From NCBI GenBank assembly GCA_036867785.1, contig CP145426.1, positions 558,001 through 622,000 of the forward strand: 64,000 bases of DNA. The letters run 5' to 3'. Shown here in pieces: positions 1 to 60,046 of this stretch (position 1 is its first letter; the number at the start of each line of letters is the position of its first letter). Position numbers and translations under genes: made by a program. Below the pieces are notes generated by a model. It did no database searches. It was not told where the DNA came from and worked only from the letters and a program-made list of their open reading frames with translations. This DNA is from Plasmodiophora brassicae (taxonomy: Eukaryota).

Positions 1-367
1 ATCTGCTGAATAGTTACTTGCCGCAGTTCTATGACGAGTTTACTCCAGATGGCTGTCAGCATTTGCGCGATGTGTTCGGTTGCTCGCGCTTGACGAAGGA
101 ATTTATCGAGAAGTTCTGCGACGGTCACGTTCATGCAACGCAATTAGAAGATGCTGCTCCCGAAGGCGTTCCGAATGATCCACGGGTCACCATTCACTGA
201 AAGCCCACGTTATTCCCATGATCAGTCATGACGGAAATAATACATGGATCATGATCCACATGTTTTTTCCGCTTGATCCACTTATTTCTTCCTGTTGATG
301 CAAAAATTTCTTCCGAGTGATCCAAGTGTTTCTTCCGAGTGATGCAAATATTTGTTTCCACCGTAAG
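1..367 (+). mobile_element. 3' end and TIR of the Tc1/IS630-like transposon (duplicate copy, cut by the window edge)
   Basis: Transposase C-terminus ...NDPRVTIH* ends at 200. The TIR ends ...TCCACCGTAAG at 367 and is followed by TA. Confidence 0.9.
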
Positions 368-1699
368 TATCTTTAATACATATCAACTTCTCCGAAATAT
401 ATGCTCGCTAGGTTGCAAAAATGGCTTAAAACATGAATAGTTGCACCGAAATAATTCGTTGTATTCAACTATTGGTCACCAAGGGTCGGGAATGTCAGAC
501 ACGAGCCGGAATCGGTCATCCATCATAGAGAACCGCAGCTTTCGTGTCACGTTCTCCAACAGGACGGCGTTGAAAGTCGCCATGTCAGCGGATACTTGAT
601 CAAACGAGCGTTCATCCCGGAACACGTCGTGGTCGGCGTCGATGCCGGTGTTGTCGATGGCATCCTTGAAACTGCCCAGGAAATCCATCAGTAGGGACTT
701 GGCCCGACAATGGCCTTCTTCACAACCTTGACTTTTCTGGAAGAGGAACTGTCAGAAATTCCCAAAGTGCGCCTTCTCTTGTTAATTTGGCTGTGTATAA
801 CTGCAAGCGTGGCCAAATCAGAAGAAATATCTCAGATCCGTCACAAGCAACGCCACATACTGTTGCCGGTCTTCCTTTCGGGGAATTGTGCGGCTATATC
901 CTTTGCTATGAACTTCTCTCGCACTAGCCAGGAAATTGCAGCCCTGCGAATTTCCGTCCTTAAGGAATTTGGGACTGCGTCCGTCAGGTTGCCATCGGCC
1001 ACCGTACTAATTAACGTGAATCAATCCATTAGAAAGGCAGCATGACAAAATACCTTTCCGTCAGGCTGACGCACACATCCCGTAGCTGGCCGCGTTCTGA
1101 CTCCACTTTCTGCCTCTTGGAGTTGCCGAGGTACGGCACAAGCAGTGTCGGTTCAAGAGGAACGGGGTCTTTGCGTTTGAAACACTCGACGGTTGCACCA
1201 TCTTTCCGGGTATAGGCGTGGCCACTCCATTGCGATCCCTGGCCTGAAACGGATTCATCTAGGGGAGTCTCACTGTCTCCTATTTCCAAGGACCGGCCAC
1301 GGCCACCGTTAACGGTGGCCCGTCCTTGGAATTAGGAGGTTGCCATTCACTTCAAGCTGGCGGTCCGGTACAGGCCGACTTACCGGTATCGATGGCGGCT
1401 TCACGATCGGCAGGGCCGTGGATGGACGACGGTTGCGCGTCAGCGGCGCCATGTCACTTGGGCGATTTGAACTGAGCGCCCCACCAAGTCCCCGCAATCC
1501 GTGGCGGACTCCGCGGCGCTTTACTTTAGGGCCTGCTTCATATAAGGCGACGTGATGAGTTTTTTGGCCGCCTCAGGTCGACCGGTTAAAAAACGATTCT
1601 CCAGTGTGCCTTGTGCGGCCACCGGATCCGTCGTCGTCATTGGGCACGCGATGACCTCGGTGAGTCACGGCTGTATGGCTTGTGGTCGTGAGCCGCGTA

Positions 1700-2068
1700 G
1701 CCACGATTTCGGGCTGTGTTTACTGATCAAGCAGCCCAAAGTGCCAGAGACATTAGGGGTCTCGCTTGAGCGTCTGGGAGGTAAAGGAACGGCCCGTAAC
1801 AAGTGTATGTCGGCTCCCCGGCATAGGCGGTATGGCGAAAGAGGTCCGATAAGAGTGCAGTCGACAAGTCCGAGCGAATCACGTCCCCGTTCCGATATCG
1901 TCCAAGGCGCGATGAACCCAGTACAAAGGTGACGGGCCGGCACGGCCAGGCCGGGGGATGTTGGCGTTCTGCTGCTGAACCTTCGATCCTCAGACTCGAG
2001 ACCAAGGCGCCTGCGTGACGAAAAAGCGCGAAAAACAAATAAAACTAAACTAAGTAACTAACTAAACT
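1700..2068 (+). mobile_element. Retroelement terminal/3' segment with AACT-type tandem tail (mirror copy ~22924-23292); homologous to 31012-31441
   Basis: Shares blocks such as CCCAGwACArAGGTGAC...GCGTTCTGC and AGGCGCCTGCGT...AAAAGCGCGAAAwACAAATAAA with 31012-31441 and ends in (AACT/AAACT)n. The 5' boundary is uncertain. Confidence 0.55.
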
Positions 2069-2204
2069 CAAGACCTCCCGGCGATTCGCCTACAATTTCG
2101 TCAGTCGCTGTCGAAACTAGAGACGCTGTCTCCTATCCTGCTGATGACGATTTCCGTATGATGCATGTGCCGTTGACTTGTTCCGTCTTTGTGCTAAGTA
2201 TCGT

Positions 2205-2370
2205 GAATTTACAGTCCATTCCCTGGATCATGTTCCGGATATCGTCGAGTCTTTGGCCCGATGTCCGGATTAGTGTGGACGTTTCCCATTGAAAGATGGA
2301 TGAAACTTATCAAAGCCCTATGCACATCCACACGGGGTCAATCTGCCAACATCGTTGCCAACTACCGTAA
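2205..2370 (+). pseudogene. CACTA/EnSpm-like transposase C-terminal fragment (DUF4218-like); mirror at ~22622-22787 (-)
   Basis: Frameshifted translation EFTVHSLDHVPDIVES..PMSGLVWTFPIERWMKLIK matches the H-L-H...GP..W.FP.ER motif. Confidence 0.65.
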
Positions 2371-2564
2371 TTTCCGCCCTAATAACCCCCGCCAATGTGC
2401 TCTACGGACATTTCCAACTGGCTGGGTGGGGATATTTGGGCGGGACTTTTCACCCTAGGGGGACAACGAGAGCAGGAAAATGGCGCCAAACGAAAGCGCG
2501 CGTCGAGAGGAGTCCAAGGTATCCGCATTTCCTATTGTCGAGGTCGCTGATGGGCCGTGGTGTC

Positions 2565-3513
2565 TGTCGAGGACCATGTCCTACCACCGGCACACGATGA
2601 CGCTGTGACTGTGCGCGGCTGTGTCACGTCCACAAAAGAGGCTCCGCCACCGTCGCCGTTGCCGGTAACGGCTTTGGCAAGCCCTGTTACACTGCGTTAC
2701 GTCGCCATCGTCTCGCGCCGATGTTAGTGGAATAAATCACTTCGTTATCGTCTTCATCAGATTAACAGTCGTACGCGTTCTACGCGCTTCGAGGCGGCGA
2801 GCCCGCCGGCGCCCCGCGCGCCGGTGCCATCCAGTGCCAGTCCCGCGTCACTGTGTCTCTGCCCTGACCCTGCTTCTGCACAACGCGCCACGAACGCCCA
2901 CTCCAGACCGCGCCACGCGCAAGAGAGTCCAGGCAGATCGCGCTAGCAGGGCAGGTCGTCCTACGGGAATCCAGAACCATTACCGGAACGTAAGCGCCAG
3001 GCGTACGCCGGTCGTACGGGCCTCAATCGCTTGCCTCAACCTCTTCTCGATATAACGTTGTCCGCCGGCGCCTTCGGCGTCGGTGTCGTCCCGAGCCAGG
3101 TCCTCCTCTCTGTGTCGTCATTGACGACTTTGCCCCAGCATATCGCGCCACACCTGTCAGCTCTAGCTACGCCACGATCCGTCTCGTGTCGCGTCAACAA
3201 GCCAAGACATACGAGCACGAGCAAGGTCGTGTTGTACATGATCCAGAGTCGAAGGTCCAGCCGGGACACGTCCGTTCGACCGCCTTCCGCATGCAACCGC
3301 GTGCCGTTGGAGGGGGCGTGTCGAGGACCATGTCCTACCACCGGCACACGATGACGCTGTGACTGTGCGCGGCTGTGTCACGTCCACAAAAGAGGCTCCG
3401 CCACCGTCGCCGTTGCCGGTAACGGCTTTGGCAAGCCCTGTTACACTGCGTTACGTCGCCATCGTCTCGCGCCGATGTTAGTGGAATAAATCACTTCGTT
3501 ATCGTCTTCATCA
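2565..3513 (+). mobile_element. Complete TRIM (non-autonomous mini LTR element), 949 bp, LTR type A
   Basis: Two apparently identical 195-bp TG...CA LTRs (2565-2759, 3319-3513), PBS GATTAACAGTCGTACGC, PPT GGAGGGGGCG, 559-bp non-coding interior, 5-bp TSD GTGTC on both sides. Confidence 0.95.
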
Positions 3514-3578
3514 GTGTCGTCCGGTTCACCCTCGGCGAGAAGATCGCCATCGCCATTGAGGCGTACGAGGAACATGGC

Positions 3579-6500
3579 TGTCGAACAACGTATCCACTAC
3601 GACCAGCAGCACATGCCTGCAGCACGTGAACGCCGTCACGCACTCCGCGACTCCGTGCCCGCCGGCGTTGGCAACCGTTACACCGTCGGCGACTACGTCG
3701 CCACTGTAACGTCCGCCGCACACGCCGTACGTAATATATCCACTCCATTATTGTCTTTCTCAGATTAACAGTCGTATAGGCGCAGGCGCTGAGCCTCTAC
3801 TCGCCATGGCCGAGAGGTGACGCCTAACACGGATGACGACCCGCTGCGTCATCTGTCGCTCGAGGAGATCGACACCCGAATTGCCGAAGCGGAGGCAACG
3901 ATCGCCAGGCAGGAGAAGATCGACCGCCTCCGCGTCCCGCAGCAGCAGCTGGCGCGTCCGACCAGCTGTCCATCGACCCCGGCCATGCCGATCATCGCCG
4001 AGGCGCACAGCCGAAGCGACGCAGGCCGACTGCCCATGCCCAAGTTCGACGGTACTCGAGACTCGTTCACGTCCTGGGTTCAGACAGCTGCACTCTGGTT
4101 TCGCAATCGTGGGTACGCGGACGTCATCGGGATCAACGAAGATGGCTCACCGAATGCGACAACCGGTACGGCACACGACCCACCTCTCGAGGCAGCCGCG
4201 CGCGAGATTCTACTCGTCCACATGCTGGACCACAAGATCGCGTCCGCGTTGTCTTTGTTTCAGGCAGGCTCGGCTGCCAAGTGCTGGCGCGTGCTGTTCC
4301 AGGCGTACAGCCCATCGTCGCTGGCATCGGTCGTGCGCGCCGTCCGCGACCTCGTCACGGTCCAGCACATGCCCGGCGAGTCGGTCGCTGTCGAGGACCA
4401 TGTCCTACCACCGGCACACGATGACATTGTGTGGGTGCGCGACTGTGTCACGTCCACAACAGAGGCTCCGCCACCGTCGCCGTTGCCGGTAACGGCTTTG
4501 GCAAGCCCTGTTACACTGCGTTACGTCGCCATCGTCTCGCGCCGATGTTGGTGGAATAAATCACTTCGTTATTGTCGTTCTTAGTCGCCACGTACGCCGC
4601 CCGAGTTCAAGCAGCGGCTCATCGCGTCCGGTCGACGGTACCGACGGAGATGCTGTCCCTCACCGACGCATTGGTCGCCGTCCTCATCTTGGCCAACGCA
4701 TCATCCGATCTCGACGCCGTCGTCGCTGGCCTGCACAATCGTGCTCTGGACACGCTGCCCAGTGTCTCCGAGGTCGTCGGGTCGTTGACAAGCGAGGAGA
4801 TCAGGGTCCAAGACGTGCGGGACCGACACGACGCGTTCCAAACGGCCAACCGCTCCAGTTGCGCCACATCGACGCGTCCCCGTGGACCACGACGCAACGA
4901 GTCCTGCGTCTTCCATCCCGGATCCAAGCACACTAACGGCGAATGCACGCTGCAACGACACATCTGGTACCGCGACAGCAACGCGAAAACCAATACATCC
5001 TCACCAACGTCCAACGAGTATCCAACGTCTGGCGCTCATCCGGTCGATCCGGCGCCCGAGCCGATGCGTGCTTTGTCGGCACGCCACGCCATCGACGTGT
5101 ACGCGAACTCAGTAGGCCTACTGGACTCAGCGTGTTCCACGACGATGACGCCCCTGCGCCGACATCTCAGCTGCTATCGCCAAGGCACCGGACCGGAAGT
5201 TGAGCTAGCCGATCTGTCGCGTACGACCACTTCCGGTCGAGGCGTGACGTCATTCGGCATGGATGTCCAGGCGACGAGTATCGATTCGCTGCACGTTCCC
5301 CGACTTGGCCAAGCGCTAGTATCAGTTGGCCAGCTCACCAGATCAGGTCACAAGATCGTGTTCGACGGCGATACCGCGAAGATCTACTCGGGGGCCAACT
5401 GGACGGCGCCCGTCGGTCAGCCAGTGGCCGTCAGTCAACGAGGACACGATAACCTGTACCGGATTCCATTATCCGCTCCAACATCCGCGCCCGGCACACT
5501 TCATTCCGCCCGAGTCTGCTCCTTGATCGCATCCAGCGTCTCATGCCGCGTCGCTAAGGTCACCGCCGCAGCTCCAGCTGTCTGGCACGCTCGAACCGGC
5601 CACCTGGGTTACGGCAACCTGCGCATCTCGTCCATAGCAATCTGTCCGGACGGTGGCCTGTCGTCGGTGTCGGCGGCTTTGAGTACTACCAGACCATGCT
5701 GGACGATTCCTCTCGGTACCTGTCCGTCTATCTGCTACGTCGCAAATCGGAGGCGCTCGACGTCATCAAGGACTATGACGCGCGTCTTCGCAACCAGGAA
5801 GGACGTGGTATCCGGACGTTCCAGACTGACGGTGGCGGCGAGTACAACTCCAAGGCGTGCGTCCTGTTCTACAACGAGTCCGGCATCCTGCACCGCAAAT
5901 CTGTCCCGTACACGCCCGAGCAGAACGGCCGCGCTGAAAGCGTCAACTACACGCTCTGCGGTATCGAAAGCTCAATCCGGTGCCACTCTAGCATGCCTGA
6001 CTCCACGTGGCCCTGGTCGCTGTCCTACTCTGCGATACTGTACAACATCCACCCGAGATCAGTCCTTCCCGGGCGTCGCACATCGTTCGAGGCTGCTCGT
6101 CGCGCCCTACCTAACATCTCGACCCTTCGTGTCTTGCGATGCCTATGCCATGCGACCACATCCAGCCACGAAGAAGCCGAGCAAGTTGGAGCCTCGTCGT
6201 GTTCGCGCTGTGTTCATCGGTTTCACGCCCGGCATGAAGGCTTGGCGGTTCTACGACGTGGACCGGGAAGACACGTTCGAGAGCACGACTGCCGAGTTCC
6301 TGGAGACCTCGTTCACATTCGGCTTTGGAAGATCCAGCCCTGCTAGTTCATCATCAGCGCCACCGTCCAGTCCCGAGTCGAGCTCTGCGCCGAACGTTGA
6401 CACGATCGTCCCGACGCCCGTCTCTTCCGACGCCGTCATGGCACCTCTACCATCGACGTCAGCATCCTCTCTCGCAGCATCCCCTCCCGAGCCTCCGTCA

Positions 6501-6841
6501 CCTGCCGCTGCGTCATCGCCTTCCGAGATCGTCCGACCGTCGCGCTCACCGTCTCCTGATGACGTATCCACCGACGAAGATGATGATGACGCTGAAGATG
6601 ATCCCGACTACGAAGGTTCGGCGTCCAGCAACGACTCTCCCAACGAAGCTGCCGATCCCGACGTCCACGACAATTCCGATGCTGCTGATATCGTCGACCA
6701 CAATGTCATCGACGTGCCACGCCCTCGCCGATCGAATCGTCGTCGTCAACCGCCTGGTGAATGGTGGAAGGCGCCGGAGGCGGCCAATCGTTCGTCGACA
6801 CGGTGGTCCTCGACGGTCGACGCCTGGTTCCAGAATCCGAC
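3579..6841 (+). mobile_element. 5' half of the Ty1/copia element (LTR-B, gag, protease, integrase), truncated at the duplication breakpoint
   Basis: 184-bp LTR 3579-3762, PBS, gag (KFDG...W...), protease LLDSACS, WHARTGH, integrase TDGGGEY...TPEQNGRAE, SKLEPR. Frameshifts are present and there is no RT. Confidence 0.92.
4389..4583 (+). mobile_element. Solo LTR-A inserted in copia gag (mirror 20409-20603)
   Basis: 195 bp, TG...TA ends, TSD GTCGC. It splits PGESVA|TYAARVQ. Confidence 0.92.
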
Positions 6842-6921: not shown

Positions 6922-7117
6922 TGTCGAGGACAATGTCGTACCACCGGCACCCGGTGACGTCGTGACTGTGCGCGACTGCGTAACGTCCACGGCAGAGGCT
7001 CCGCCACTGACGCCGTTGTCGGTAACGACTTGGCAACCCCTGTTAAAACAGCGTTACGTCGCCGCCGTCTCGCGCCGATGTCGGTCGGAATAAATCACTT
7101 CGTTATCGTCTTCATTA
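6922..7117 (+). mobile_element. Solo LTR-A variant
   Basis: 196 bp, TG...TA ends, TSD GTCCG (6917-6921 / 7118-7122). Confidence 0.9.
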
Positions 7118-7361: not shown

Positions 7362-8347
7362 CATATGAGCACGTGCAAGGCGGTGTTGTTCATGATTCAG
7401 AGTCAAAGTCAAAGGTCCAGCCGGGACACATCCGTTCGACAGTCTTCCGCATGCAACCGCGTGCCGTTGGAGGGGGCGTGTTGAGGATCAAGCCGTTACC
7501 GACAACGGCGTCAGTGGCGGAGCCTCTGCCGAGGACGTTACGCAGTCGCGCACTGTCACGGTGTCACCGTGTGCCGGTGGTACGACATGATCCTCAACAC
7601 GCCCCCTCCAACGGCACGCGGTTGCATGCGGAAGACTGTCGAACGGATGTGTCCCGGCTGGACCTTTGACTCTGAATCATGAACAACACCGCCTTGCACG
7701 TGCTCATATGCCTGGGCTCGTTGACGCGGCACGAGACGGATCGTGGCGTAGCTTGGGGTGACATGAATGGCGCAATTTGCTGAGGCGGGTTCGACGATGA
7801 CGCGCAGGGTGTTGGATCTGGCTCAGGACGACGTCGACGCAGATTGCGCCGACGGACAACGTTATCTTGCGAAGCGATTGAGGCAAGCGATTGAGGCCCG
7901 TACGACCGGCGTACGCCTGGCACTTACGTCCCGGTACTGGTTCTGGATCCCCTTAATGACGGCCTGCCTTGCTGGCGCGATCTGCCTGGACTCTCTTGCG
8001 CGTGGCGCGGACTCGAGCGGGCGTTCGTGGCGCGTTGTGCAGAAGCAGGGTCAGGGCAGAGACACAGTGGCGCGGGACTGGCACTGGATGGCACCGGCGC
8101 GCGGGGCGCCGGTGGGCTCACCGCCTCGAAGCGCGCAGAACGCTTACGACTGTTAATCTAAGGAAGACAATAGCGAAGTGAAGTGTATTACGTACGGCGT
8201 TTGCGCAACGGCACGGTGGACGTTACAGTGGCGACGTAGTCGCCGACGACGTAACGGCTGCCAACGGCGGCGAGCGCGGAGTTTCGGAGTGCGTGACGGC
8301 GTGCTGCAGGCATGTGCTGCTGGTTGTACTGGACATGTTGTTTGACA
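7362..8347 (-). mobile_element. Rearranged TRIM: B-like 5' LTR, internal region, truncated A-type 3' LTR and a fold-back duplication
   Basis: LTR at 8159-8347 and PBS ending at 8158. The interior is homologous to 2760-3318, with a PPT at ~7600-7609 and a partial LTR-A at 7491-7599. Positions 7362-7490 are an inverted copy of 7588-7710. Confidence 0.8.
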
Positions 8348-9900: not shown

Positions 9901-10622
9901 TTCCTGAAAAACGGAAGCATCACTCCAATCGTTGTACGTGTGGGATGGGTGCACCTGAGTCCGTCTATACTGTTGTAGCTGCTCATTCATGTTTTCCGCC
10001 AGGAATCTGCAGCCCCACTGCAATATGATCTGTCACAATGGAAATGTCAAAAGAGCAAAGGATCTCATCATTTGCGCGAACCTGCAACAACATTGGCAGA
10101 TAATAACAGGAACTTGTACGATTTCGGCAGCACGGCGGCCGTACACGGTTCACGTTATGGGCAGGCCAAACATGGCCTACATCACAATACCTATACTCGA
10201 TAAACGGGCAAGTTGAGAAAGACAATAATGGAGTGGATATATTACGTACGGCGTGTGCGGCGGACGTTACAGTGGCGACGTAGTCGCCGACGGTGTAACG
10301 GTTGCCAACGCCGGCGGGCACGGAGTCGCGGAGTGCGTGACGGCGTTCACGTGCTGCAGGCATGTGCTGCTGGTCGTAGTGGATACATTGTTCGACACGC
10401 CCCCTCCAGCAGCACACGGCCTGGGACTTGTGTCGATGATGCCGGCCAGGAGCAGGTTCGCATTGTGACGACAGAGCAAGATGTGTCAACCACACGGATT
10501 GACCGACTGAGGTCGGTCCAACGCCGTGGACGTTTATTGTAGTAGTGCGCTGCGGAGGAGCCCAATTAGGTGCCGGCTGAGTCGCCAAGACAGCGACTCG
10601 ACCGTGACATAATAGTCCCCTT

Positions 10623-13600
10623 TTACGGGCGGCGAAGACGGGGTCCGGGCTTGTCTGGGTACCGAGCGTGGAATGCCGCGAGCAGGCGATCGAATCCGCC
10701 GGTGCCCTGCAAGTTGGAGGCGGGTTCCCAGGTGCGCTCGGATGCAGGGTAGCCTTCCCAGTCGATAAAATACTGCAGCTTACCAGCACGATATCGAGAG
10801 TCCAGGACCTCCTTCACGATGAACAGCGGTTGGTCGTCGTCGTCGAGCAGAATCGTGGGTGGCGGAGGCTGCACACGATGGGGTATCACGTTCGGGACGT
10901 ACAGTTCCAGTTGGGATGCGTGGAAGACGTTGTGGATGCGGAAGGATGCCGGGAGCAGGAGTTCGTAGGAAACCGGATTAACGATGCGACTAACTTCGAA
11001 AGGCCCGAGCATTTGGACATCCAGCTTACAGCATGGCCGGCCAGTCGCAATTGCCCCTCGACGGAGCATGACCAACTCCCCGATCTTGAAGTCGGGATGA
11101 GGTCGGCGTTTCCGATCCGCAGCTCGTTTAATGGTGCTGACAGCACGATGCAGTTGGCGGTGTAGGTAACGGCGAATGGCCGTCAAGTTCTCCACGCGTT
11201 CATCGGCAGAGGGATTGGAGCTACCGTGTTTGCAAGGACGAGGGTCGCGTAGCTGAGGGTGGTAGCCGTAGTTCGCGAAGAAGGGAGACATTCCAGTGGA
11301 CGAATGGTCGACGTTATTGTAAGAGAATTCGGCCAGCGGCAATAATGGCTCCCAGTCGTCTTGCAGGTAGCACACATAACAGCGAAGGTATTGCTCTAAT
11401 ATCTGGTTGACGCGCTCGGTCTGGCCATCAGATTCGGGATGGCGGGATGATGACAGATGGCGTTCAACGCCGAGACGGCATAGGAGGTGCTTCCAGAACA
11501 ACGATACGAACTGGGGTCCGCGATCCGAGACAATGTCGTCGGGCAGGCCATGCAGACGGAACACGTTCTGAAGAAACAGATCGGCAAGCTGATCCGCGGA
11601 AATGGATTCTCGACACGCCACAAAGTGGGCCATCTTCGAATAACGGTCGACCACGACCAGTACAGAGTCATAGCCACGGGAGGAGGGGAGCTTGACGATA
11701 AAGTCCATTGAGATGGAGGACCAGAGAGCGTTTGGAATTGGTAGCGGAAGTAGCAGGCCGGATGGTCGATGGCGAGGAGGTTTGACGCGGCGACACGTGT
11801 CACAAGTCGCCACGTAACCCTTGATGAACGAGGACATCTTGGGCCACCAGAACTCGCGCTTGACGAGCTGCAATGTCTTGCGAACCCCAAAATGACCGGC
11901 GGTAACGTTGTCGTGAAGGCTGTGCAGAACTTCCAGCTTGCAGGCCTCACCAGCGACGACGAGAGCGGTTCCGTAATAACGTCTTCTGGACGAAGGGGTC
12001 ATCGGCTTGTTCGCGACGAATACGTTCGACAAGGGAGATGCCTGATGTACCGGTCTGGAGAAAGAGAATAGCTGGGTCCGGGCGGAAGAAGCGATGCGGT
12101 GGAAGCAGCTGTTGAGACATTGCTAGAATTTCTTCGTCGCCAGGCGAAGGTTGGTATTCCGGACGACGAGTGAGGGCGTCCGGCTTCCCATGAAGTCGCC
12201 CCGGACGATGATGAATCACGAAATCGAATTCGCTAAGCAGTTGAGACCAGCGAACCTGACGTCTGTTTAACTTGTGGGTAGACATGAAGTGGACGAGGTT
12301 ACGATGGTCGCTATGCACGACAGTTTGGTGCTGATCTGAGTCGAGGAACTGCCGCCACTTAGTGAACGCTTCCACAACCGCCAGGAGTTCCTTGTCGTAA
12401 ATGGGATAGCTAATCTCGGCAGCAATCAGCTTCCGCGAGAAGTAGGCGATCGGGTGCAACTCCCCATCTGCGCCGCCCTTTTGCGAAAGGACCATAGCGA
12501 TGGCAAAGTCTTGATGAAGACGATAACGAAGTGATTTATTCCGACCGACATCGGCGTGAGACGGCGACGACGTAACGCTATGTAACAGGGGCTTGCCAAG
12601 CCGTTACCGACAACTGCGTCAGTGGCGGAGCCTCTGCCGTGGACGTTACGCAGTCGCGCACTGTCACGGCGTCCCCGTGTGCCGGTGGTACGACATGATC
12701 CTCGACAAGTCTGAGGCGTCGGTCTCGACATCACACGGTTGATGAGGATCGAAATGGCCCAAGACAGGTGCCGATGTGAACGCAACCTTCAGAGAGCCGA
12801 ATGCAGCTTGAGCGTCAGCATCCCAGACAAAGGCGACACCGTCACGCGTCAGGTTTGTGAGTGGTAGAGCAATTTCCGCGAAGTGAGGAATAAATTTGCG
12901 ATAAAAATTGGCGAATCCCAAGAATACTTGGAGACCATGGATATCTCGTGGCGGTTGCCAAGACAGGATAGTGTCGATACGGGCAGGGTCGAGGCGCAGT
13001 CCGTCTCGAGAAACGAGGTAGCCGAGAAACTCGACCTCCTTGGCGCCGAAAACACACTTCTCCATATTAGCGGTAAGACTGCTAGCCCGAAGTCGTTCCA
13101 GGACGAGGCGCACATGGTGTTCATGGTCGGCGACGTTCGCAGAAAAAATAAGGATGTCGTCCAGATATACGACAACGAACTGGTCGAGGTAATCCTTGAA
13201 CATATCATTCATGAACGACTGGAACGAAGCCGGTGCGTTTGCGAGGCCAAACGGCATAACCAAATATTCGAAGAGTCCATACGGGGTGCGAAACGCCGTC
13301 TTCCACTCATCCCCTTCGCGGATACGAATTTGATTATACGCGCTGCGCAGGTCGATTTTCGTGAAGATCGTGGCCCGACTAAGGTTGGCAAGAAGTTGGT
13401 CAATAAGAGGCAGTGGATACCGGTTCTTGATCGTGGCAGAATTTAGGCCGCGATAATCGACACAAAGTCGCAGCGAGCCGTCTTTCTTGCGTACAAACAG
13501 AATGGGCGCACCGGCCGAAGAACGGGAAGGACGAATGAAATTCGACTTTAAATTGGCTTCCAGATACTGCTTGAGGGCCACCTGCTCTCGTTGGGAGAGA

Positions 13601-15024
13601 CCATATAACCGACAAAATGGTGGCTCCTTGCCGGGCTTAAGATCGATGGGGCAATCGGAAGCGCGGTGAGGAGGCAGGCACGCCGGGCTGCCAGTGGCGA
13701 ACACGTCCGAGAACTCGCGATAGGCGTCAGGAAGCGCAGGCCCGGAGACTGAGTCCGAGTCGAGTTCGGTCCAAGTATAATGCAGAAGGTAACAAGCTGC
13801 GTCGTCAACGATAGCATCCAGAAACGGCTCAGCGCTGATGAACGCAATCGAGGTTGATGACCCCGGGTCACCGTCTGGTGAGACCAGGGGCGTAAAGAAG
13901 GACTCGTCGGCGGCGTTCGAGATCAGGGGCTCCGCAGAGGCGCCGGAAGGGAGCCGCGTGAATGGAAGATAAGTCCACCCAAGGACCCAGGCCAGGGCGA
14001 CCAAGGATGCAGTCATCAAAAGATTAATAATGTGGCGACCACGAAGCCCGCCAGAGGGGCGAGGCGGCGAGAGGCGTTGTCCCGCCCCTCGACGGACGGG
14101 TCCACGGTGCCGGACGCACGACGGCTCGGGGCCCGAGGGGAACGATGATAACGGATCGTTGTGGCACGCTGCCACAGTAGCAGCGGCAGCGACCTCGGAG
14201 AGGCAGTCATGCGCGAGGGCGGGAGAGCTAGAGCTGTCGACAACAGCAGCAGGCGGTTCACTGTGACCGGCGGCCACCGTATCAGTGACAGCGACCTCCG
14301 AGAGGCAATCGGGAGCGATGACGGAAGCGCTAGAGCTATCGACGCCCGCAGCCGGGACGGTCCCGAACTCGGAGTAATCGTCGTCGTCCTCGTCGTCAGA
14401 AGCCAACTCAGGGAGGGCAATTACCTCCACCTCGGCTACCTCAGATGCTGAGGCAGTCGGCAACGTTTCGACTGATGCCGCCGAATCAACTGCATGCGTA
14501 GACGCAGGGAGGTCTCCTGCCGGGATTGAGATCCCCGCGATGCGAGGGCCGCGATGCTGGAGACGGTGGCTCCGCCAATCGATGTCAGGGTTTGTATCCG
14601 CCAACCACGGCAGGCCGAGGATGACAGGATGCTGCGGCGAATGGATCATGTTCAGGACGACGTCACTGTCGAAACATTCGTCGACGGTGATTCGTAGCGG
14701 GGCGGTTTCCTGAGTAATTGGGGCCAGATGACGGCCGTCAATGACGCGAACCGGAATAGCACGCGATTTGGCGCGAACAGGCACTTCGTGATGACGACAG
14801 AACGACCAGTCGATAAAATTGGACGTCGCGCCACAGTCTAACAAGGCGAGCGTACTGACGCGACGTGAGCCGATAACGAGACAGACCGGTACCAATAGAT
14901 GTGGTATAGATGTAGCCGACGTAAAGAATAAATCCGTAACATGAAGAAAGTCGGGTTCGGAACCAAAAGAAATGTTTACTGGGCGACTGGGGAACCCGTT
15001 CACAGACGCCCGGGCACATTTCCC
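10623..15024 (-). pseudogene. pol: Gypsy-1 pol (PR-spacer-RT-RH-IN-chromodomain), split into three ORFs
   Basis: ORFs 12664-15186, 11947-12495 and 10623-12032 carry the domains in order. The chromodomain reads IVKEVLDSRYRAGKLQYFIDWEGY...TWEPASNL. Confidence 0.9.
12512..12707 (-). mobile_element. Solo LTR-A (copia/TRIM family) inserted in Gypsy-1 RNase H
   Basis: 196 bp, TG...CA ends, TSD AGTCT. It splits TDASD|FAIA. Confidence 0.93.
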
Positions 15025-16097
15025 GGGGGACCAGCCTGCGGGACGCTGGCGCTGGGTGGGGGCGACGGAGGACCAGCAGCGGCAGGCCGCTCGGGGCACA
15101 GCGCGGAGCGGTGACCAACCTTGTGACAGTGCTGGCACGGAGGTCGCTTGGGGCAGGACGCAATGAAATGTCCAGCCTCGCGACAATAGTGGCAGACCAA
15201 AGGTTGCGCCCCTCCGACCTCGATAGCGTTGACAGCGGCGATCGGATACTTCGGTTCGAGATGGATCGCCATCTCGAACATCTTGTCGTACTCGGTGTAG
15301 TTGTAAATGAAGAGGGCATCAGAAAGTGCAGGGTGCAAGGACATGCGGAACTTTTCCGCCAAACGGGACGGACTCAGCCTATACAAGGGGTCGAGTTGTT
15401 GAACCTTCTTGTACAAGCGCTGGAACTCCCGCGCATGGTGAACCACACTGGAAGTCTGCTTCAAATTGTCAAAATCAGCTTCGACCCGCTTTAACGACGG
15501 CTCCGGAAAATCATGAAGCAGGGCGGATGCCACGTCCGCCATTGACGCGTCCTCGGACAGGTCAAGATAAGTCTCCAAGGCGTATCCTTTCAAGGCCGTC
15601 GTCAAGATGCATTGCACAGCGTCGGAAAGCGGACTGGTAGACGTTAACGGCGTCTGGGTGATCCGCGCGAAAGCGGTCAACCAACGCATCGTCGACAGAC
15701 CGTCCGCCCCCGAAAATCGCGGGATATCGTGGGACTGGACAACAATAGGCGGCGGCGGCGGCGGGGACACGGGATGCTGCGTCGACGGGGCGACAGAATT
15801 CGGCAGAGACGAAGCCACAGAAGCGTGGAGAGGCAATAGGGAAGGCACAGCGCTGATGACCGGGGGATCCGACGAGTCGTTGCGCACTTCGGGAGACGAG
15901 ACAGCTGGCGCTGCGGGGGGGCTGGCCCTAGGCAGCGAGCCATGCGCGAATTTCAACTGGGCTAAGAGGTCGAGGATCTCCGCCTTCAGGTCGCGCAGCT
16001 CGATAGCGCCAGCAACATCCGCCGCAGCTGCAACATCCGGATTCGCGGACGAGGGCGGGTCCGACAACGCCGGAATCAACCCATCACCTCCCGCCAT
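15000..16097 (-). CDS. gag: Gypsy-1 Gag with two CCHC zinc knuckles
   Basis: MAGGDG...IPRFSG...LKQTSSV...CHYCREAGHFIASC...CQHCHKVGHRSALC. Confidence 0.85.
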   Translation of the reverse strand: MAGGDGLIPALSDPPSSANPDVAAAADVAGAIELRDLKAEILDLLAQLKFAHGSLPRASPPAAPAVSSPEVRNDSSDPPVISAVPSLLPLHASVASSLPNSVAPSTQHPVSPPPPPPIVVQSHDIPRFSGADGLSTMRWLTAFARITQTPLTSTSPLSDAVQCILTTALKGYALETYLDLSEDASMADVASALLHDFPEPSLKRVEADFDNLKQTSSVVHHAREFQRLYKKVQQLDPLYRLSPSRLAEKFRMSLHPALSDALFIYNYTEYDKMFEMAIHLEPKYPIAAVNAIEVGGAQPLVCHYCREAGHFIASCPKRPPCQHCHKVGHRSALCPERPAAAGPPSPPPSASVPQAGPPGNVPGRL

Positions 16098-18150
16098 AGC
16101 TGCGATGATACAGGGCCGAGACGAGACGAGACGATAGTCGATACGGGCCGAGACGAGACGAGACGATAGTCGATACGGGCCGAGACGAGACGAGACGATA
16201 CGCGTACGACCGAAGAGTAGTCGGTCAAAATGTGACGACAGAGCAAGATGTGTCAACCACACGGATTGACCGACTGAGGTCGGTCCAACGCCGTGGACGT
16301 TTATTGTAGTAGTGCGCTGCGGAGGAGCCCAATTAGGTGCCGGCTGAGTCGCCAAGACAGCGACTCGACCGTGACACGCATGATACGAGGTGCTGAGAGC
16401 GGGCTTCGTGAGGTAGTCTGCAGCCATCTCGGCGGACGGGCACTTGTGGACCACGATCAAACTGGCCTCGACGGCCTCCCGGGTGTAGTGAAACTGCACC
16501 TCGATGTCCTTCGTGCGATCATCCATCCGACGATAGCCAGACCAGGCCTTCGCGCCTTGATTGTCCTCGTATACGATCGTCGGACTGGAGCGTGCGAAGC
16601 CGATTTCGGTCAGGAATGACCGGATCCAGGCCAGCTGGCGGGTAACAGCACACAGCGACTTGATCTCTGCATGTGTGGACGATAAGCTAACTTTGACTGC
16701 GCCCAGGTCTTGGCGACGTGACTGCCAGTGCACGGGGCCGCCAGCCAGCAGGATGATGTGGCCGGAGCGCGACCGTCGCGTGTCAGGGTCGGATGCCCAA
16801 TGAGCGTCGGCGTATGCGATCAGACGATCTTCGGGCTGGCGTTCGTATCGGATGCCGTGCGTCATGGTGCCGGCGAGGTACTTAAGAACGCGTTGCCCCG
16901 CACGCCAATGCTGGATGCCGGGATTCGAGGAGAATTGGGCCAGTACATTCGTTATGTACGCGATGTCGGGACGGCATCGATGGGCGAGCCATGTCAGGCA
17001 GCCAATGAGTTTGAGGTACGGCTTGGTCGCCATTTCGTCGCGGTCGAGGTCGCTTTGTGGACTCATTGTCGTTAATAGGTGAACGCCAGGCTGGTGCGGC
17101 GTGTCGACCGGATGACAATGCGACATGTTGAAGTCGCTCAACACCTTCTCGATGTACTCGGCTTGGTCAAGGGTGATGGCGCCGGTGCCAGGTTCGCGTC
17201 GGATGCGCATGCCAAGCAGGGTCGACGGTTCACCTTGATCGGTGATCTCGGCCATCGTGGAGAGCTTCTCGAGAACGGATTCCGCGAACGGGACGTCATT
17301 GTACGCCAGCAGACCGTCGTCGGTGTGCACCGACATGATCATGAACTTTCCATCGCGATCGTACCGGAAGACGCAGGGGTCCGCGATGATCGATTCGAAT
17401 CCGAGTGATAACAGCATCTCCCGAAGCGTCTTGTACCAACGTTCGGCGCCTTGTTTCGTTCCATAAAGGGCCTTTTGCAGTTGACGAACTCGGTACGGGA
17501 CGTGATGATCGGTGAAGCCATCCGGCTGACGAATGTAAACATCATGGAGCATGTCGGCGTTCAGGTATGCGGCCACCCAGTCGACCTGGCGAAGATGCAG
17601 GCCGTGCTGCGCCGCGAGTGCTAGGATAACGAGGAACGCAGTGGCACGGGCGGTCGGCGCGAACGTATCGTCGAAGTCGATGCCGGGGCGTTGTCGGAAG
17701 CCCTGAGCACAGAGTCGGGCGGTGAACTTGCGGATGCCACCGTTGCCACTGAGCGAGGACTTCACTCGGAACACCCACTTGGCGCCAACAGCGATCTTAC
17801 TTTTCGGCAGCTCGATTAGCGGGCCGAACGTGTTCTTGGCGTCCAGTGTTGCCATCTGGGTGACGGCGGCGTCCCACCAGTGGCCAGCGAAAGGTGATGA
17901 GAGGGCATCGGCCATTGAGTTGGGTACGGGAATGTCGGTCGCTTTCAGCTTCGACAGGTCGGGTCGTGGTAGACGGGCTGGGTCGATCGGGGCGGATACC
18001 TTGGCTCGACATGCCTTGGCAGCGGCGCCGCGACATGTCGGACGGTTGGACCTGATGGCCTGATCGATCAGACGGCGCTCCTCAACCTGCTGCCAATGCC
18101 GGATCAGTCGGCGGGAGCGACGAGGAGGGCGCTGTGTCGGGGACGTTAGG

Positions 18151-21100
18151 GTCGGATTCTGGAACCAGGCGTCGACCGTCGAGGACCACCGTGTCGACGA
18201 ACGATTGGCCGCCTCCGGCGCCTTCCACCATTCACCAGGCGGTTGACGACGACGATTCGATCGGCGAGGGCGTGGCACGTCGATGACATTGTGGTCGACG
18301 ATATCAGCAGCATCGGAATTGTCGTGGACGTCGGGATCGGCAGCTTCGTTGGGAGAGTCGTTGCTGGACGCCGAACCTTCGTAGTCGGGATCATCTTCAG
18401 CGTCATCATCATCTTCGTCGGTGGATACGTCATCAGGAGACGGTGAGCGCGACGGTCGGACGATCTCGGAAGGCGATGACGCAGCGGCAGGTGACGGAGG
18501 CTCGGGAGGGGATGCTGCGAGAGAGGATGCTGACGTCGATGGTAGAGGTGCCATGACGGCGTCGGAAGAGACGGGCGTCGGGACGATCGTGTCAACGTTC
18601 GGCGCAGAGCTCGACTCGGGACTGGACGGTGGCGCTGATGATGAACTAGCAGGGCTGGATCTTCCAAAGCCGAATGTGAACGAGGTCTCCAGGAACTCGG
18701 CAGTCGTGCTCTCGAACGTGTCTTCCCGGTCCACGTCGTAGAACCGCCAAGCCTTCATGCCGGGCGTGAAACCGATGAACACAGCGCGAACACGACGAGG
18801 CTCCAACTTGCTCGGCTTCTTCGTGGCTGGATGTGGTCGCATGGCATAGGCATCGCAAGACACGAAGGGTCGAGATGTTAGGTAGGGCGCGACGAGCAGC
18901 CTCGAACGATGTGCGACGCCCGGGAAGGACTGATCTCGGGTGGATGTTGTACAGTATCGCAGAGTAGGACAGCGACCAGGGCCACGTGGAGTCAGGCATG
19001 CTAGAGTGGCACCGGATTGAGCTTTCGATACCGCAGAGCGTGTAGTTGACGCTTTCAGCGCGGCCGTTCTGCTCGGGCGTGTACGGGACAGATTTGCGGT
19101 GCAGGATGCCGGACTCGTTGTAGAACAGGACGCACGCCTTGGAGTTGTACTCGCCGCCACCGTCAGTCTGGAACGTCCGGATACCACGTCCTTCCTGGTT
19201 GCGAAGACGCGCGTCATAGTCCTTGATGACGTCGAGCGCCTCCGATTTGCGACGTAGCAGATAGACGGACAGGTACCGAGAGGAATCGTCCAGCATGGTC
19301 TGGTAGTACTCAAAGCCGCCGACACCGACGACAGGCCACCGTCCGGACAGATTGCTATGGACGAGATGCGCAGGTTGCCGTAACCCAGGTGGCCGGTTCG
19401 AGCGTGCCAGACAGCTGGAGCTGCGGCGGTGACCTTAGCGACGCGGCATGAGACGCTGGATGCGATCAAGGAGCAGACTCGGGCGGAATGAAGTGTGCCG
19501 GGCGCGGATGTTGGAGCGGATAATGGAATCCGGTACAGGTTATCGTGTCCTCGTTGACTGACGGCCACTGGCTGACCGACGGGCGCCGTCCAGTTGGCCC
19601 CCGAGTAGATCTTCGCGGTATCGCCGTCGAACACGATCTTGTGACCTGATCTGGTGAGCTGGCCAACTGATACTAGCGCTTGGCCAAGTCGGGGAACGTG
19701 CAGCGAATCGATACTCGTCGCCTGGACATCCATGCCGAATGACGTCACGCCTCGACCGGAAGTGGTCGTACGCGACAGATCGGCTAGCTCAACTTCCGGT
19801 CCGGTGCCTTGGCGATAGCAGCTGAGATGTCGGCGCAGGGGCGTCATCGTCGTGGAACACGCTGAGTCCAGTAGGCCTACTGAGTTCGCGTACACGTCGA
19901 TGGCGTGGCGTGCCGACAAAGCACGCATCGGCTCGGGCGCCGGATCGACCGGATGAGCGCCAGACGTTGGATACTCGTTGGACGTTGGTGAGGATGTATT
20001 GGTTTTCGCGTTGCTGTCGCGGTACCAGATGTGTCGTTGCAGCGTGCATTCGCCGTTAGTGTGCTTGGATCCGGGATGGAAGACGCAGGACTCGTTGCGT
20101 CGTGGTCCACGGGGACGCGTCGATGTGGCGCAACTGGAGCGGTTGGCCGTTTGGAACGCGTCGTGTCGGTCCCGCACGTCTTGGACCCTGATCTCCTCGC
20201 TTGTCAACGACCCGACGACCTCGGAGACACTGGGCAGCGTGTCCAGAGCACGATTGTGCAGGCCAGCGACGACGGCGTCGAGATCGGATGATGCGTTGGC
20301 CAAGATGAGGACGGCGACCAATGCGTCGGTGAGGGACAGCATCTCCGTCGGTACCGTCGACCGGACGCGATGAGCCGCTGCTTGAACTCGGGCGGCGTAC
20401 GTGGCGACTAAGAACGACAATAACGAAGTGATTTATTCCACCAACATCGGCGCGAGACGATGGCGACGTAACGCAGTGTAACAGGGCTTGCCAAAGCCGT
20501 TACCGGCAACGGCGACGGTGGCGGAGCCTCTGTTGTGGACGTGACACAGTCGCGCACCCACACAATGTCATCGTGTGCCGGTGGTAGGACATGGTCCTCG
20601 ACAGCGACCGACTCGCCGGGCATGTGCTGGACCGTGACGAGGTCGCGGACGGCGCGCACGACCGATGCCAGCGACGATGGGCTGTACGCCTGGAACAGCA
20701 CGCGCCAGCACTTGGCAGCCGAGCCTGCCTGAAACAAAGACAACGCGGACGCGATCTTGTGGTCCAGCATGTGGACGAGTAGAATCTCGCGCGCGGCTGC
20801 CTCGAGAGGTGGGTCGTGTGCCGTACCGGTTGTCGCATTCGGTGAGCCATCTTCGTTGATCCCGATGACGTCCGCGTACCCACGATTGCGAAACCAGAGT
20901 GCAGCTGTCTGAACCCAGGACGTGAACGAGTCTCGAGTACCGTCGAACTTGGGCATGGGCAGTCGGCCTGCGTCGCTTCGGCTGTGCGCCTCGGCGATGA
21001 TCGGCATGGCCGGGGTCGATGGACAGCTGGTCGGACGCGCCAGCTGCTGCTGCGGGACGCGGAGGCGGTCGATCTTCTCCTGCCTGGCGATCGTTGCCTC

Positions 21101-24100
21101 CGCTTCGGCAATTCGGGTGTCGATCTCCTCGAGCGACAGATGACGCAGCGGGTCGTCATCCGTGTTAGGCGTCACCTCTCGGCCATGGCGAGTAGAGGCT
21201 CAGCGCCTGCGCCTATACGACTGTTAATCTGAGAAAGACAATAATGGAGTGGATATATTACGTACGGCGTGTGCGGCGGACGTTACAGTGGCGACGTAGT
21301 CGCCGACGGTGTAACGGTTGCCAACGCCGGCGGGCACGGAGTCGCGGAGTGCGTGACGGCGTTCACGTGCTGCAGGCATGTGCTGCTGGTCGTAGTGGAT
21401 ACGTTGTTCGACAGCCATGTTCCTCGTACGCCTCAATGGCGATGGCGATCTTCTCGCCGAGGGTGAACCGGACGACACTGATGAAGACGATAACGAAGTG
21501 ATTTATTCCACTAACATCGGCGCGAGACGATGGCGACGTAACGCAGTGTAACAGGGCTTGCCAAAGCCGTTACCGGCAACGGCGACGGTGGCGGAGCCTC
21601 TTTTGTGGACGTGACACAGCCGCGCACAGTCACAGCGTCATCGTGTGCCGGTGGTAGGACATGGTCCTCGACACGCCCCCTCCAACGGCACGCGGTTGCA
21701 TGCGGAAGGCGGTCGAACGGACGTGTCCCGGCTGGACCTTCGACTCTGGATCATGTACAACACGACCTTGCTCGTGCTCGTATGTCTTGGCTTGTTGACG
21801 CGACACGAGACGGATCGTGGCGTAGCTAGAGCTGACAGGTGTGGCGCGATATGCTGGGGCAAAGTCGTCAATGACGACACAGAGAGGAGGACCTGGCTCG
21901 GGACGACACCGACGCCGAAGGCGCCGGCGGACAACGTTATATCGAGAAGAGGTTGAGGCAAGCGATTGAGGCCCGTACGACCGGCGTACGCCTGGCGCTT
22001 ACGTTCCGGTAATGGTTCTGGATTCCCGTAGGACGACCTGCCCTGCTAGCGCGATCTGCCTGGACTCTCTTGCGCGTGGCGCGGTCTGGAGTGGGCGTTC
22101 GTGGCGCGTTGTGCAGAAGCAGGGTCAGGGCAGAGACACAGTGACGCGGGACTGGCACTGGATGGCACCGGCGCGCGGGGCGCCGGCGGGCTCGCCGCCT
22201 CGAAGCGCGTAGAACGCGTACGACTGTTAATCTGATGAAGACGATAACGAAGTGATTTATTCCACTAACATCGGCGCGAGACGATGGCGACGTAACGCAG
22301 TGTAACAGGGCTTGCCAAAGCCGTTACCGGCAACGGCGACGGTGGCGGAGCCTCTTTTGTGGACGTGACACAGCCGCGCACAGTCACAGCGTCATCGTGT
22401 GCCGGTGGTAGGACATGGTCCTCGACAGACACCACGGCCCATCAGCGACCTCGACAATAGGAAATGCGGATACCTTGGACTCCTCTCGACGCGCGCTTTC
22501 GTTTGGCGCCATTTTCCTGCTCTCGTTGTCCCCCTAGGGTGAAAAGTCCCGCCCAAATATCCCCACCCAGCCAGTTGGAAATGTCCGTAGAGCACATTGG
22601 CGGGGGTTATTAGGGCGGAAATTACGGTAGTTGGCAACGATGTTGGCAGATTGACCCCGTGTGGATGTGCATAGGGCTTTGATAAGTTTCATCCATCTTT
22701 CAATGGGAAACGTCCACACTAATCCGGACATCGGGCCAAAGACTCGACGATATCCGGAACATGATCCAGGGAATGGACTGTAAATTCACGATACTTAGCA
22801 CAAAGACGGAACAAGTCAACGGCACATGCATCATACGGAAATCGTCATCAGCAGGATAGGAGACAGCGTCTCTAGTTTCGACAGCGACTGACGAAATTGT
22901 AGGCGAATCGCCGGGAGGTCTTGAGTTTAGTTAGTTACTTAGTTTAGTTTTATTTGTTTTTCGCGCTTTTTCGTCACGCAGGCGCCTTGGTCTCGAGTCT
23001 GAGGATCGAAGGTTCAGCAGCAGAACGCCAACATCCCCCGGCCTGGCCGTGCCGGCCCGTCACCTTTGTACTGGGTTCATCGCGCCTTGGACGATATCGG
23101 AACGGGGACGTGATTCGCTCGGACTTGTCGACTGCACTCTTATCGGACCTCTTTCGCCATACCGCCTATGCCGGGGAGCCGACATACACTTGTTACGGGC
23201 CGTTCCTTTACCTCCCAGACGCTCAAGCGAGACCCCTAATGTCTCTGGCACTTTGGGCTGCTTGATCAGTAAACACAGCCCGAAATCGTGGCTACGCGGC
23301 TCACGACCACAAGCCATACAGCCGTGACTCACCGAGGTCATCGCGTGCCCAATGACGACGACGGATCCGGTGGCCGCACAAGGCACACTGGAGAATCGTT
23401 TTTTAACCGGTCGACCTGAGGCGGCCAAAAAACTCATCACGTCGCCTTATATGAAGCAGGCCCTAAAGTAAAGCGCCGCGGAGTCCGCCACGGATTGCGG
23501 GGACTTGGTGGGGCGCTCAGTTCAAATCGCCCAAGTGACATGGCGCCGCTGACGCGCAACCGTCGTCCATCCACGGCCCTGCCGATCGTGAAGCCGCCAT
23601 CGATACCGGTAAGTCGGCCTGTACCGGACCGCCAGCTTGAAGTGAATGGCAACCTCCTAATTCCAAGGACGGGCCACCGTTAACGGTGGCCGTGGCCGGT
23701 CCTTGGAAATAGGAGACAGTGAGACTCCCCTAGATGAATCCGTTTCAGGCCAGGGATCGCAATGGAGTGGCCACGCCTATACCCGGAAAGATGGTGCAAC
23801 CGTCGAGTGTTTCAAACGCAAAGACCCCGTTCCTCTTGAACCGACACTGCTTGTGCCGTACCTCGGCAACTCCAAGAGGCAGAAAGTGGAGTCAGAACGC
23901 GGCCAGCTACGGGATGTGTGCGTCAGCCTGACGGAAAGGTATTTTGTCATGCTGCCTTTCTAATGGATTGATTCACGTTAATTAGTACGGTGGCCGATGG
24001 CAACCTGACGGACGCAGTCCCAAATTCCTTAAGGACGGAAATTCGCAGGGCTGCAATTTCCTGGCTAGTGCGAGAGAAGTTCATAGCAAAGGATATAGCC

Positions 24101-26791: not shown

Positions 26792-26793
26792 TA

Positions 26794-28068: not shown

Positions 28069-28577
28069 TCCGGCATTGGCAGCACTTGTCGCCTACACTG
28101 CCCGTTTGATGTACCTCAGGTACCCTCAGTTACCTTACCGGCATGTCGAACTTGCATCCTCCCCGATGCCCTTCATCGGGTCATCCGGAACTTCGAGGGC
28201 GAACCGCAAGCAAAGTGGCGTCGCGCACGCGCAATTGGTACGTTACGAGCTGACATGGGCAACAGCCGCTCGGCATGCCTCGCCTCGAATGCCCGCACGT
28301 GATGCGGCCCTCCGCCACCGGATCAAACATGGAGGAGCTAGACTCGTGCATCATTTTCCATTTCTGTTTGTCCCTTATGATTTCCTGTATTGTTGCGGTC
28401 AGGTACGTCGGGCTGGAATCGCAGCACAATGCGATATACGCGGACAGTTCTCGTGTACTCCAACGCCAATGAGCGAATGCTGCATCACTGAAATTGCCCT
28501 GCGTAGTAATGCTTAATTAACTTCTACAACTAAACCAACTGAACAACTATTAGTTAACTAAACTGAATTGGTTGGAC

Positions 28578-28880: not shown

Positions 28881-28899
28881 GACAACTGAGTCCATGTTT

Positions 28900-59827: not shown

Positions 59828-60046
59828 CGGTCAACTCCGTGATGATGGGTCGAATCTGCGCCGGGCCGAGCGGGTCACCGGCAACTGCGGCGCAATACTG
59901 ACCGGTGGCTGTTGTCTTCCTGCCCAGCTGGGGGCCCGTTGACTACGTGGTACGCAACAGGTTTGTTGAAGAGTAACGACTACGTCGCGGGAGGGGCGTC
60001 ATCAATCCTAGACCAGTGCGCGCAGCAAGTTGTTTAACTGCCATCG

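What the first reader, a model, noticed from the sequence alone, without database searches (positions are those of the whole stretch)
2760..2783. Copia/TRIM family primed by a half-tRNA-Asn
Seen: directly after the LTR, the TRIM, the copia (3763-3776) and the rearranged TRIM (8145-8158) all start GATTAACAGTCGTA. The reverse complement (GCG)TACGAC-T-GTT-AA-TC looks like an anticodon stem-loop with anticodon GTT, ending in the 3' side of the stem. Known: Drosophila copia and yeast Ty5 prime from the 5' half of tRNA-iMet, and Candida Tca2 from an internal tRNA-Arg site. Inference: this family uses a cleaved tRNA-Asn(GUU), a primer I do not recall being described.
Basis: partly seen in the sequence, partly recalled or inferred. 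Interest (0 to 1): 0.72.

Follow-up and report, generated by a model that had tools for sequence, protein, structure and literature searches.

The report
Copia primer site matching half tRNA-Asn
Jumping genes in this protist genome carry a 14-letter site that pairs with the middle of the host's asparagine transfer RNA, so they most likely start copying themselves from a cut half of that tRNA, a known trick already reported with this same tRNA in rust fungi.

Summary
Observation confirmed. GATTAACAGTCGTA follows the 5' LTR at 2760, 3763 and 8158(-) and complements nt 27-40 of the host's four identical, intronless tRNA-Asn(GUU) genes. Of 90 genomic 12-mer sites, 4 are those genes. Of the other 86, 84 follow a CA/TA end, 83 match at least 14 nt, and none reaches nt 41. 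Other Copia families here use tRNA-Lys(CUU) and initiator-type tRNA-Met in the same register. Self-priming and 3'-end priming fail. Half-tRNA (hemivirus-type) priming is very likely (0.88) but not shown biochemically.

The novelty claim fails. Kojima 2024 (PMC10886601) assigns tRNA-Asn-GTT as a primer of rust-fungus Helenus TRIMs, with a near-identical PBS. An earlier scan note gave this lead; the scan noted such sites 9 times in at least 3 genomes, this one included.

What may be new: the host group (likely Plasmodiophora), and a scar. The match breaks opposite tRNA G26, varies there within families, then resumes; two copies run on to the D-arm. This fits reverse transcriptase stalling or misreading at m2,2G26 while copying its primer (inferred).

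The parts
2565..2759 (+). TRIM 5' LTR (TGT...TCA, 195 nt); TSD GTGTC at 2560-2564 and 3514-3518
2760..2777 (+). TRIM PBS: 14-nt core (2760-2773) complementary to tRNA-Asn nt 40-27, extended to nt 23
3309..3318 (+). TRIM polypurine tract GGAGGGGGCG, also found before the Copia 3' LTR
3319..3513 (+). TRIM 3' LTR, identical to the 5' LTR
3579..3762 (+). Copia 5' LTR (184 nt)
   Evidence: (I13)
3763..3776 (+). Copia PBS, 14 nt = tRNA-Asn nt 40-27; junction TAG, then GCGC
3793..6841 (+). Broken Copia gag/protease/integrase region (Pol_BBD, rve), interrupted by a solo TRIM LTR at about 4389-4584 and cut at the duplication edge
8145..8158 (-). PBS of a chimeric copy: Copia-type LTR joined to a TRIM body; junction A, then GCG
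10214..21413 (-). Longer Copia copy (LTRs 21230-21413 and 10214-10397; RVT_2 reverse transcriptase in 16383-18149), with a Gypsy element nested at 10464-16376
21216..21229 (-). PBS of that Copia copy (duplicate of 3763-3776)
22219..22232 (-). PBS of the duplicated TRIM

Best explanation
The site is the minus-strand primer-binding site of Ty1/copia retrotransposons and their non-coding TRIM passengers, and the primer is a 5' fragment of host tRNA-Asn(GUU) whose 3' end is C40. SHOWN: the PBS abuts the LTR, complements tRNA nt 27-40, never nt 41, and is shared by distant families. INFERRED: (1) the anticodon arm is opened and annealed to the element RNA; (2) the tRNA is cut after nt 40 by an unidentified nuclease; (3) reverse transcriptase extends from C40; (4) in plus-strand strong-stop synthesis it copies the primer back to G26, where m2,2G stops it or makes it misread, which would set the 14-nt length and the variable base 15; (5) the TRIMs are copied in trans by the Copia enzymes. 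Step 4 is less sure (about 0.45) than the primer identity.
For: Genome-wide 12-mer: 90 sites, reversed control 0. Four are tRNA-Asn genes. Of the other 86, exact match from nt 40 is 14 nt in 64, 18 nt in 18, 21 nt in 1 and under 14 nt in 3; 84 follow CA/TA; 0 extend to nt 41. With 2 mismatches allowed, 82 of 98 sites are exact (control 7); 4 element copies carry core substitutions. The same PBS sits in two RT lineages only 33% identical. Same register with other tRNAs: 17 of 17 non-gene Lys sites match nt 27-40, and 12 iMet-type sites also stop at nt 40. Hemivirus priming from nt 40 is in print (PMC1181622). G26 scar: GCG (tRNA 25-23) resumes within 7 nt after the core in 81 of 83 sites, background 21%. 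Column 15 is the only 4-state column among the first 93 in the TRIM family. L065 (Asn) and L169 (Lys) match on into the D-arm with a change opposite G26 (p<0.001 each, 2 of 17 tested). The host encodes Trm1, and m2,2G26 causes RT misincorporation (PMC4697793).
Against: No primer RNA, tRNA half or cDNA end was observed. Copies are not independent: many are young or segmental duplicates, and the first 12 nt were fixed by the search. The junction excess is clear only in the TRIM family; in the two Copia families other columns vary as much. 14 of 17 distal extensions tested had p>0.05. Nine of 12 iMet-type sites carry an unrepaired mismatch opposite nt 36, which argues against faithful re-copying of the PBS from the tRNA in every cycle. 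No half-Asn PBS was found in 24 of 24 metagenome relatives with enough upstream DNA, so covariation with another host's tRNA-Asn was not tested. G26 modification in this host is unmeasured.
Confidence: 0.88

Rival explanations
1. tRNA-Asn anneals by its anticodon arm but the working primer ends elsewhere (for example nt 39 or 41, or is trimmed after annealing), or extra D-arm pairing is selected for primer loading rather than being a copying scar.
For: Six of 7 rust-fungus consensi carry an extra C, matching nt 41 or a 1-nt spacer. Duplex folding finds bulged pairing to the D-arm in all 3 window sites. GCG after the junction is conserved across families.
Against: 0 of 86 sites here match nt 41; Lys and iMet sites stop at the same position. 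Changes cluster opposite G26 in the two long extensions.
Confidence: 0.06
2. The site is an inherited relic or a conserved structural motif and priming uses something else.
For: Many copies are recent, so conservation within families is weak evidence.
Against: The identical 14-mer is kept between RT lineages 33% identical whose flanks do not align. It switches to the exact Lys or Met complement in other families.
Confidence: 0.04
3. Self-priming as in Tf1: the PBS pairs with the element's own 5' end.
For: The Gypsy nested in this window has such a match (10 nt to its own LTR).
Against: Longest complement of the Copia or TRIM PBS is 6 nt in the own LTR and 7 nt in the whole element. The PBS is shared by unrelated LTRs (13 LTR groups).
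Confidence: 0.01
4. Ordinary priming from the CCA end of some tRNA.
For: It is the commonest mode in LTR elements (PMC6317226).
Against: The PBS does not begin TGG. The best match to 38 other sampled tRNA sequences plus CCA is 8 nt. The 12-mer occurs nowhere else in the assembly as an RNA gene found here.
Confidence: 0.01

Closest known systems
Rust-fungus Helenus TRIMs with a tRNA-Asn-GTT primer (Helenus-3_PGr, -2B_PSt, -2_UVF and others; Kojima 2024, PMC10886601)
   Same: PBS complementary to the tRNA-Asn anticodon arm right after the LTR. Helenus-2_UVF starts GATTAACAGTCGAA then GCGCT, the same layout. 5-bp TSD; Copia partners.
   Different: Base 13 differs (A vs T). Six of 7 rust consensi have an extra 5' C. 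Rust primer tRNA genes are reported to have introns; the four here have none. The window TRIM has no tRNA-like gene in its LTR. Host is a protist, not a fungus. Figure 3 could not be seen; the paper also writes 'tRNA-Asp' for Copia-6_PHord, probably the same group (my inference).
Hemiviruses: yeast Ty5, Drosophila copia and 1731, Volvox Osser (PMC1181622; PMC6317226)
   Same: Ty1/copia elements; half-tRNA primer; synthesis from the 3'-OH of nt 40.
   Different: They use initiator tRNA-Met and are shown experimentally (Ke 1999 and Kikuchi 1986, seen only as citations). Priming mode is not monophyletic per PMC1181622, so it gives no lineage assignment.
Fungal FunCo1 (internal tRNA-Lys PBS ATTAAGAGTCT; PMC5445492), plant Bianca (half tRNA-Ile; PMC6317226), Candida gamma/Tca2 (internal tRNA-Arg(UCU); PMC4139406)
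   Same: Non-Met internal tRNA primers in Copia elements. This genome also has half-Lys families.
   Different: Different isotype. Relationship to the window lineage was not tested because no reference sequences were on hand.

Membership tests
Ty1/copia superfamily | RVT_2-type reverse transcriptase | tested here: met
   PF07727 E=4.8e-50
Ty1/copia superfamily | Order protease, integrase, RT between LTRs | tested here: met
   Pol_BBD, then rve, then RVT_2 along the copy
Half-tRNA-primed Copia (hemivirus-type mechanism) | PBS complementary to the anticodon arm, ending at nt 40, adjacent to the LTR | tested here: met
Half-tRNA-primed Copia (hemivirus-type mechanism) | cDNA actually starts from a tRNA fragment | not testable with these tools
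   only assembled contigs, no raw small-RNA or cDNA reads
Classical Hemivirus members (Ty5, copia, Osser, 1731) | Primer is initiator tRNA-Met | tested here: not met
   primer is tRNA-Asn; other families of the genome do have the Met-type site
Classical Hemivirus members (Ty5, copia, Osser, 1731) | RT clusters with these elements | not tested
   no reference sequences available from the tools; trees hold genome and metagenome rows only
TRIM | Under 1 kb, two LTRs, PBS, PPT, no coding region, TSD | tested here: met
   949 nt, 195-nt LTRs, 5-bp TSD; no ORF of 150 aa or more inside it
Helenus (TRIMp3) | tRNA-like sequence in the LTR | tested here: not met
   window TRIM: ARAGORN finds none. Met by another TRIM family of the genome (L014, L024, L026)
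Tf1-type self-priming | PBS complementary to the element's own LTR | tested here: not met
   at most 6 nt

The most novel reading that the evidence does not exclude
The far edge of a half-tRNA PBS is a fossil of tRNA modification. Reverse transcriptase copies its primer back to m2,2G26, stalls or misreads there, and the error is inherited. This would explain the 14-nt length, the variable base 15 and the rare read-through into the D-arm. It would also give a route for primer switching: the Asn and Lys sites differ at only 3 of 14 bases, and a Lys-primed relative nests in the same RT clade as the Asn family. I found no paper stating this (searches, listings only; the older Ty5 and copia papers are not held).
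Probability: 0.45. Interest if true: 0.55.

Novelty: new member of a known kind. Interest (0 to 1): 0.3.

Why it matters
Half-tRNA priming is a known but poorly understood route: the nuclease that makes the primer is unsettled (recalled), and standard annotation tools look only for 3'-end PBSs. This genome adds a rhizarian host with three primer isotypes (Asn, Lys, iMet) in one register, and intronless primer genes, so the intron link noted for rust fungi is not required. The possible G26 scar offers a sequence-only test of whether primer sequence is inherited. The Asn primer itself is not new.

Tried and rejected
Self-priming and 3'-end priming: rejected.

Viral-contig pattern scan: 17 loci, none with Copia coding sequence by tblastn, treated as chance.

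Metagenome relatives: 78 loci, 24 with at least 2300 nt upstream of the RT examined; 0 half-Asn, 1 half-Lys, 9 half-iMet, 7 clear 3'-end, the rest not readable. The closest (L203, 59%) lacks its 5' end.

A gag-protease-integrase homolog search gave only 7 proteins and was not pursued.

Sequencing runs: no RNA holder listed. Four contig runs were laid and cannot show primer ends.

The careful tree did not finish; both trees are quick trees with long branches, so the number and direction of primer switches are open.

The tRNA set is partial: 63 of 457 candidates scored, 39 distinct sequences tested.

L048 and L030 are probably chance hits; L036 is a TRIM body joined to Copia internal DNA.

Ke et al. 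1999 is not held. Figure 3 of PMC10886601 is not held as text, so I could not check its tRNA alignment.

Ten paper searches showed no listing describing this PBS in Plasmodiophora; I did not open the two Plasmodiophora-mentioning papers listed, and preprint supplements are closed.

Full report
1. Observation. The 14-mer GATTAACAGTCGTA occurs five times in the window against 0.21 expected: at 2760 (+), 3763 (+), 8158 (-), and twice more inside a 6841-nt inverted duplicate. Each copy abuts an LTR end. The TRIM spans 2565-3513, with identical 195-nt LTRs, a GTGTC target duplication and a polypurine tract. The second element is a Ty1/copia retrotransposon (Pol_BBD, rve and RVT_2 domains). Its longer copy runs 21413-10214 on the minus strand with a Gypsy element nested inside. 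The 8158 site is a chimera of a Copia-type LTR and a TRIM body. The nearest named proteins are from Plasmodiophora brassicae (89% identity), so the host is probably that protist.

2. The matching RNA. The 12-mer occurs 90 times in G000, the reversed control 0 times. Four sites are antisense to identical, intronless tRNA-Asn(GTT) genes. In the ARAGORN fold the 14-mer covers nt 27-40, and the TRIM's 18-nt match covers nt 23-40. Among 39 sampled host tRNA sequences plus CCA, the next best match is 8 nt. The element's own LTR gives 6 nt. The tRNA sample is partial, but the genome-wide search leaves room only for an intron-split or organellar RNA.

3. Genome-wide pattern. Of the 86 non-gene sites, 68 follow CA and 16 follow TA. 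The exact match from nt 40 is 14 nt in 64 sites, 18 nt in 18, 21 nt in 1, and shorter in 3; none extends to nt 41. They fall into 10 internal and 13 LTR groups. A search allowing 2 mismatches found 98 sites, 82 exact, control 7. Of nine extra sites fetched, three are element copies with core changes. The same PBS occurs in two RT lineages only 33% identical. Many copies are young or duplicated, so these counts are not independent events.

4. Internal control. Other Copia families use other tRNAs in the same register. Of 24 Lys-pattern sites, 7 are tRNA-Lys(CTT) genes and all 17 others match nt 27-40. Of 16 Met-pattern sites, 3 are tRNA-Met genes with initiator features (identity elements recalled), 1 is tRNA-like, and 12 are other sites that also stop at nt 40. 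Three isotypes ending at one position is what a shared priming mechanism predicts. PMC1181622 (passages) states that hemiviruses start cDNA from the 3'-OH of nt 40.

5. The far edge. After the 14-nt core, the base opposite G26 is T in 35, A in 20, C (the match) in 19 and G in 9 of 83 sites. GCG, the complement of nt 25-23, resumes within 7 nt in 81 of 83, against 21% in control windows. Within the TRIM family this column takes four states (C, A, G, gap), the only such column among the first 93. In the two Copia families the junction varies, but so do other columns. Two of 17 tested copies run far into the D-arm (L065 for Asn, L169 for Lys; p<0.001 each) with a substitution or deletion opposite G26; 14 were not significant. 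The host encodes Trm1, and m2,2G26 makes reverse transcriptases misincorporate (PMC4697793, passages). I infer that the enzyme copies its primer back to G26 during plus-strand strong-stop synthesis. Against this, 9 of 12 iMet-type sites keep a mismatch that faithful re-copying should remove, and extra pairing could be selected for primer loading instead.

6. Relatives. Of 78 metagenome loci, 24 had enough upstream DNA: none had a half-Asn site, 1 half-Lys, 9 half-iMet and 7 a clear 3'-end site. The Lys-primed L206 falls in a 96%-supported clade with the window family (quick tree), and the Asn and Lys sites differ at 3 of 14 bases. A switch within this clade is likely; its direction is open. 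A viral-contig scan gave only chance hits. No RNA run was available to show tRNA halves.

7. What is known. PMC6317226 (passages): half tRNA-Met in Osser, Bryco and Gymco-II; half tRNA-Ile in Bianca. PMC5445492 (passages): internal tRNA-Lys in FunCo1. PMC4139406 (passages): internal tRNA-Arg and iMet in Candida. PMC10886601 (section 3.6 whole, supplement searched): anticodon-loop primers in rust-fungus Helenus and Copia, with the sentence that tRNA-Asn-GTT was chosen once, and seven consensi containing GATTAACAG at the start of the internal region. I first missed that sentence and found it after scan note e1-7528977. The Asn primer is therefore already described, by sequence inference as here. 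The scan holds 9 such notes from at least 3 genomes, two of those shown from this genome; notes on other genomes were not tested.

8. Verdict. A real PBS for a tRNA-Asn 5' half ending at C40 (0.88). It works like Ty5 and copia, fails their tRNA-Met criterion, and is closest to the rust-fungus Asn-primed elements. New member of a known kind; interest 0.3. The possible additions are the host group, intronless primer genes, three isotypes in one genome, and the G26 scar (probability 0.45, interest 0.55 if true).

Noticed in passing
L014:1376-1748; also L024, L026, L064, L075: A 373-nt TRIM whose 127-nt LTRs hold a tRNA-like gene (non-canonical anticodon loop, followed by a T run) and which uses the same half-Asn PBS: Helenus-like. 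Already noted by the scan (e1-7152696, e1-7165843).
   Followed up: partly
L095; L146-L169: Half-tRNA-Lys(CUU) PBS at 17 non-gene sites, 9 of them one young family. The gag start of L169 is 47% identical over 83 aa to metagenome element L206, also Lys-primed.
   Followed up: yes
L089, L091-L094; L170-L185: Half-iMet Copia family with non-canonical LTR ends (AAT...ATT instead of TG...CA). Nine of 12 PBS sites have T for A opposite tRNA nt 36, in both subfamilies.
   Followed up: partly
L096: Half-iMet-type PBS with one G missing relative to the tRNA.
   Followed up: no
window 10464-16376 (-): Nested Gypsy element (146-nt LTRs, TSD ATGCG) whose PBS has a 10-nt complement in its own LTR: looks Tf1-type self-primed.
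   Followed up: partly
window 1-6841 vs 18151-24991: A 6841-nt, 100% identical inverted duplication; its edge cuts the Copia copy. A very recent event or an assembly artefact.
   Followed up: no
window 2560-3513: One contig of run X15 joins 2559 to 3514, the empty site of this TRIM: insertion polymorphism (one contig).
   Followed up: partly
window 3574-3578 vs 10209-10213: The flanks of the long Copia copy (ATGGC, ACTTG) are not a matching TSD, suggesting recombination between two insertions.
   Followed up: no
window 16 of 86 PBS sites; solo LTRs near 4389-4584 and 6922-7117: LTRs often end TTA rather than TCA.
   Followed up: no
L177: tRNA-Met-like sequence with an insertion of about 9 nt in the D-arm, not called by ARAGORN: pseudogene or non-canonical intron.
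   Followed up: no
window 38575-41529 and 28536-28927: Tandem arrays of 147-nt and 42-nt units in this retroelement-rich region, possibly centromeric (untested).
   Followed up: no
window 58772-59830 and 60047-60907 (-): Two ORFs that look like ankyrin-repeat proteins, one with a hydrophobic N-terminus (judged by eye, not searched).
   Followed up: no
window 24792-26705 (-): 637-aa frame that looks like a Tc1/mariner-type DDE transposase between inverted repeats (24623-24741, 26675-26793); label recalled, not searched.
   Followed up: no
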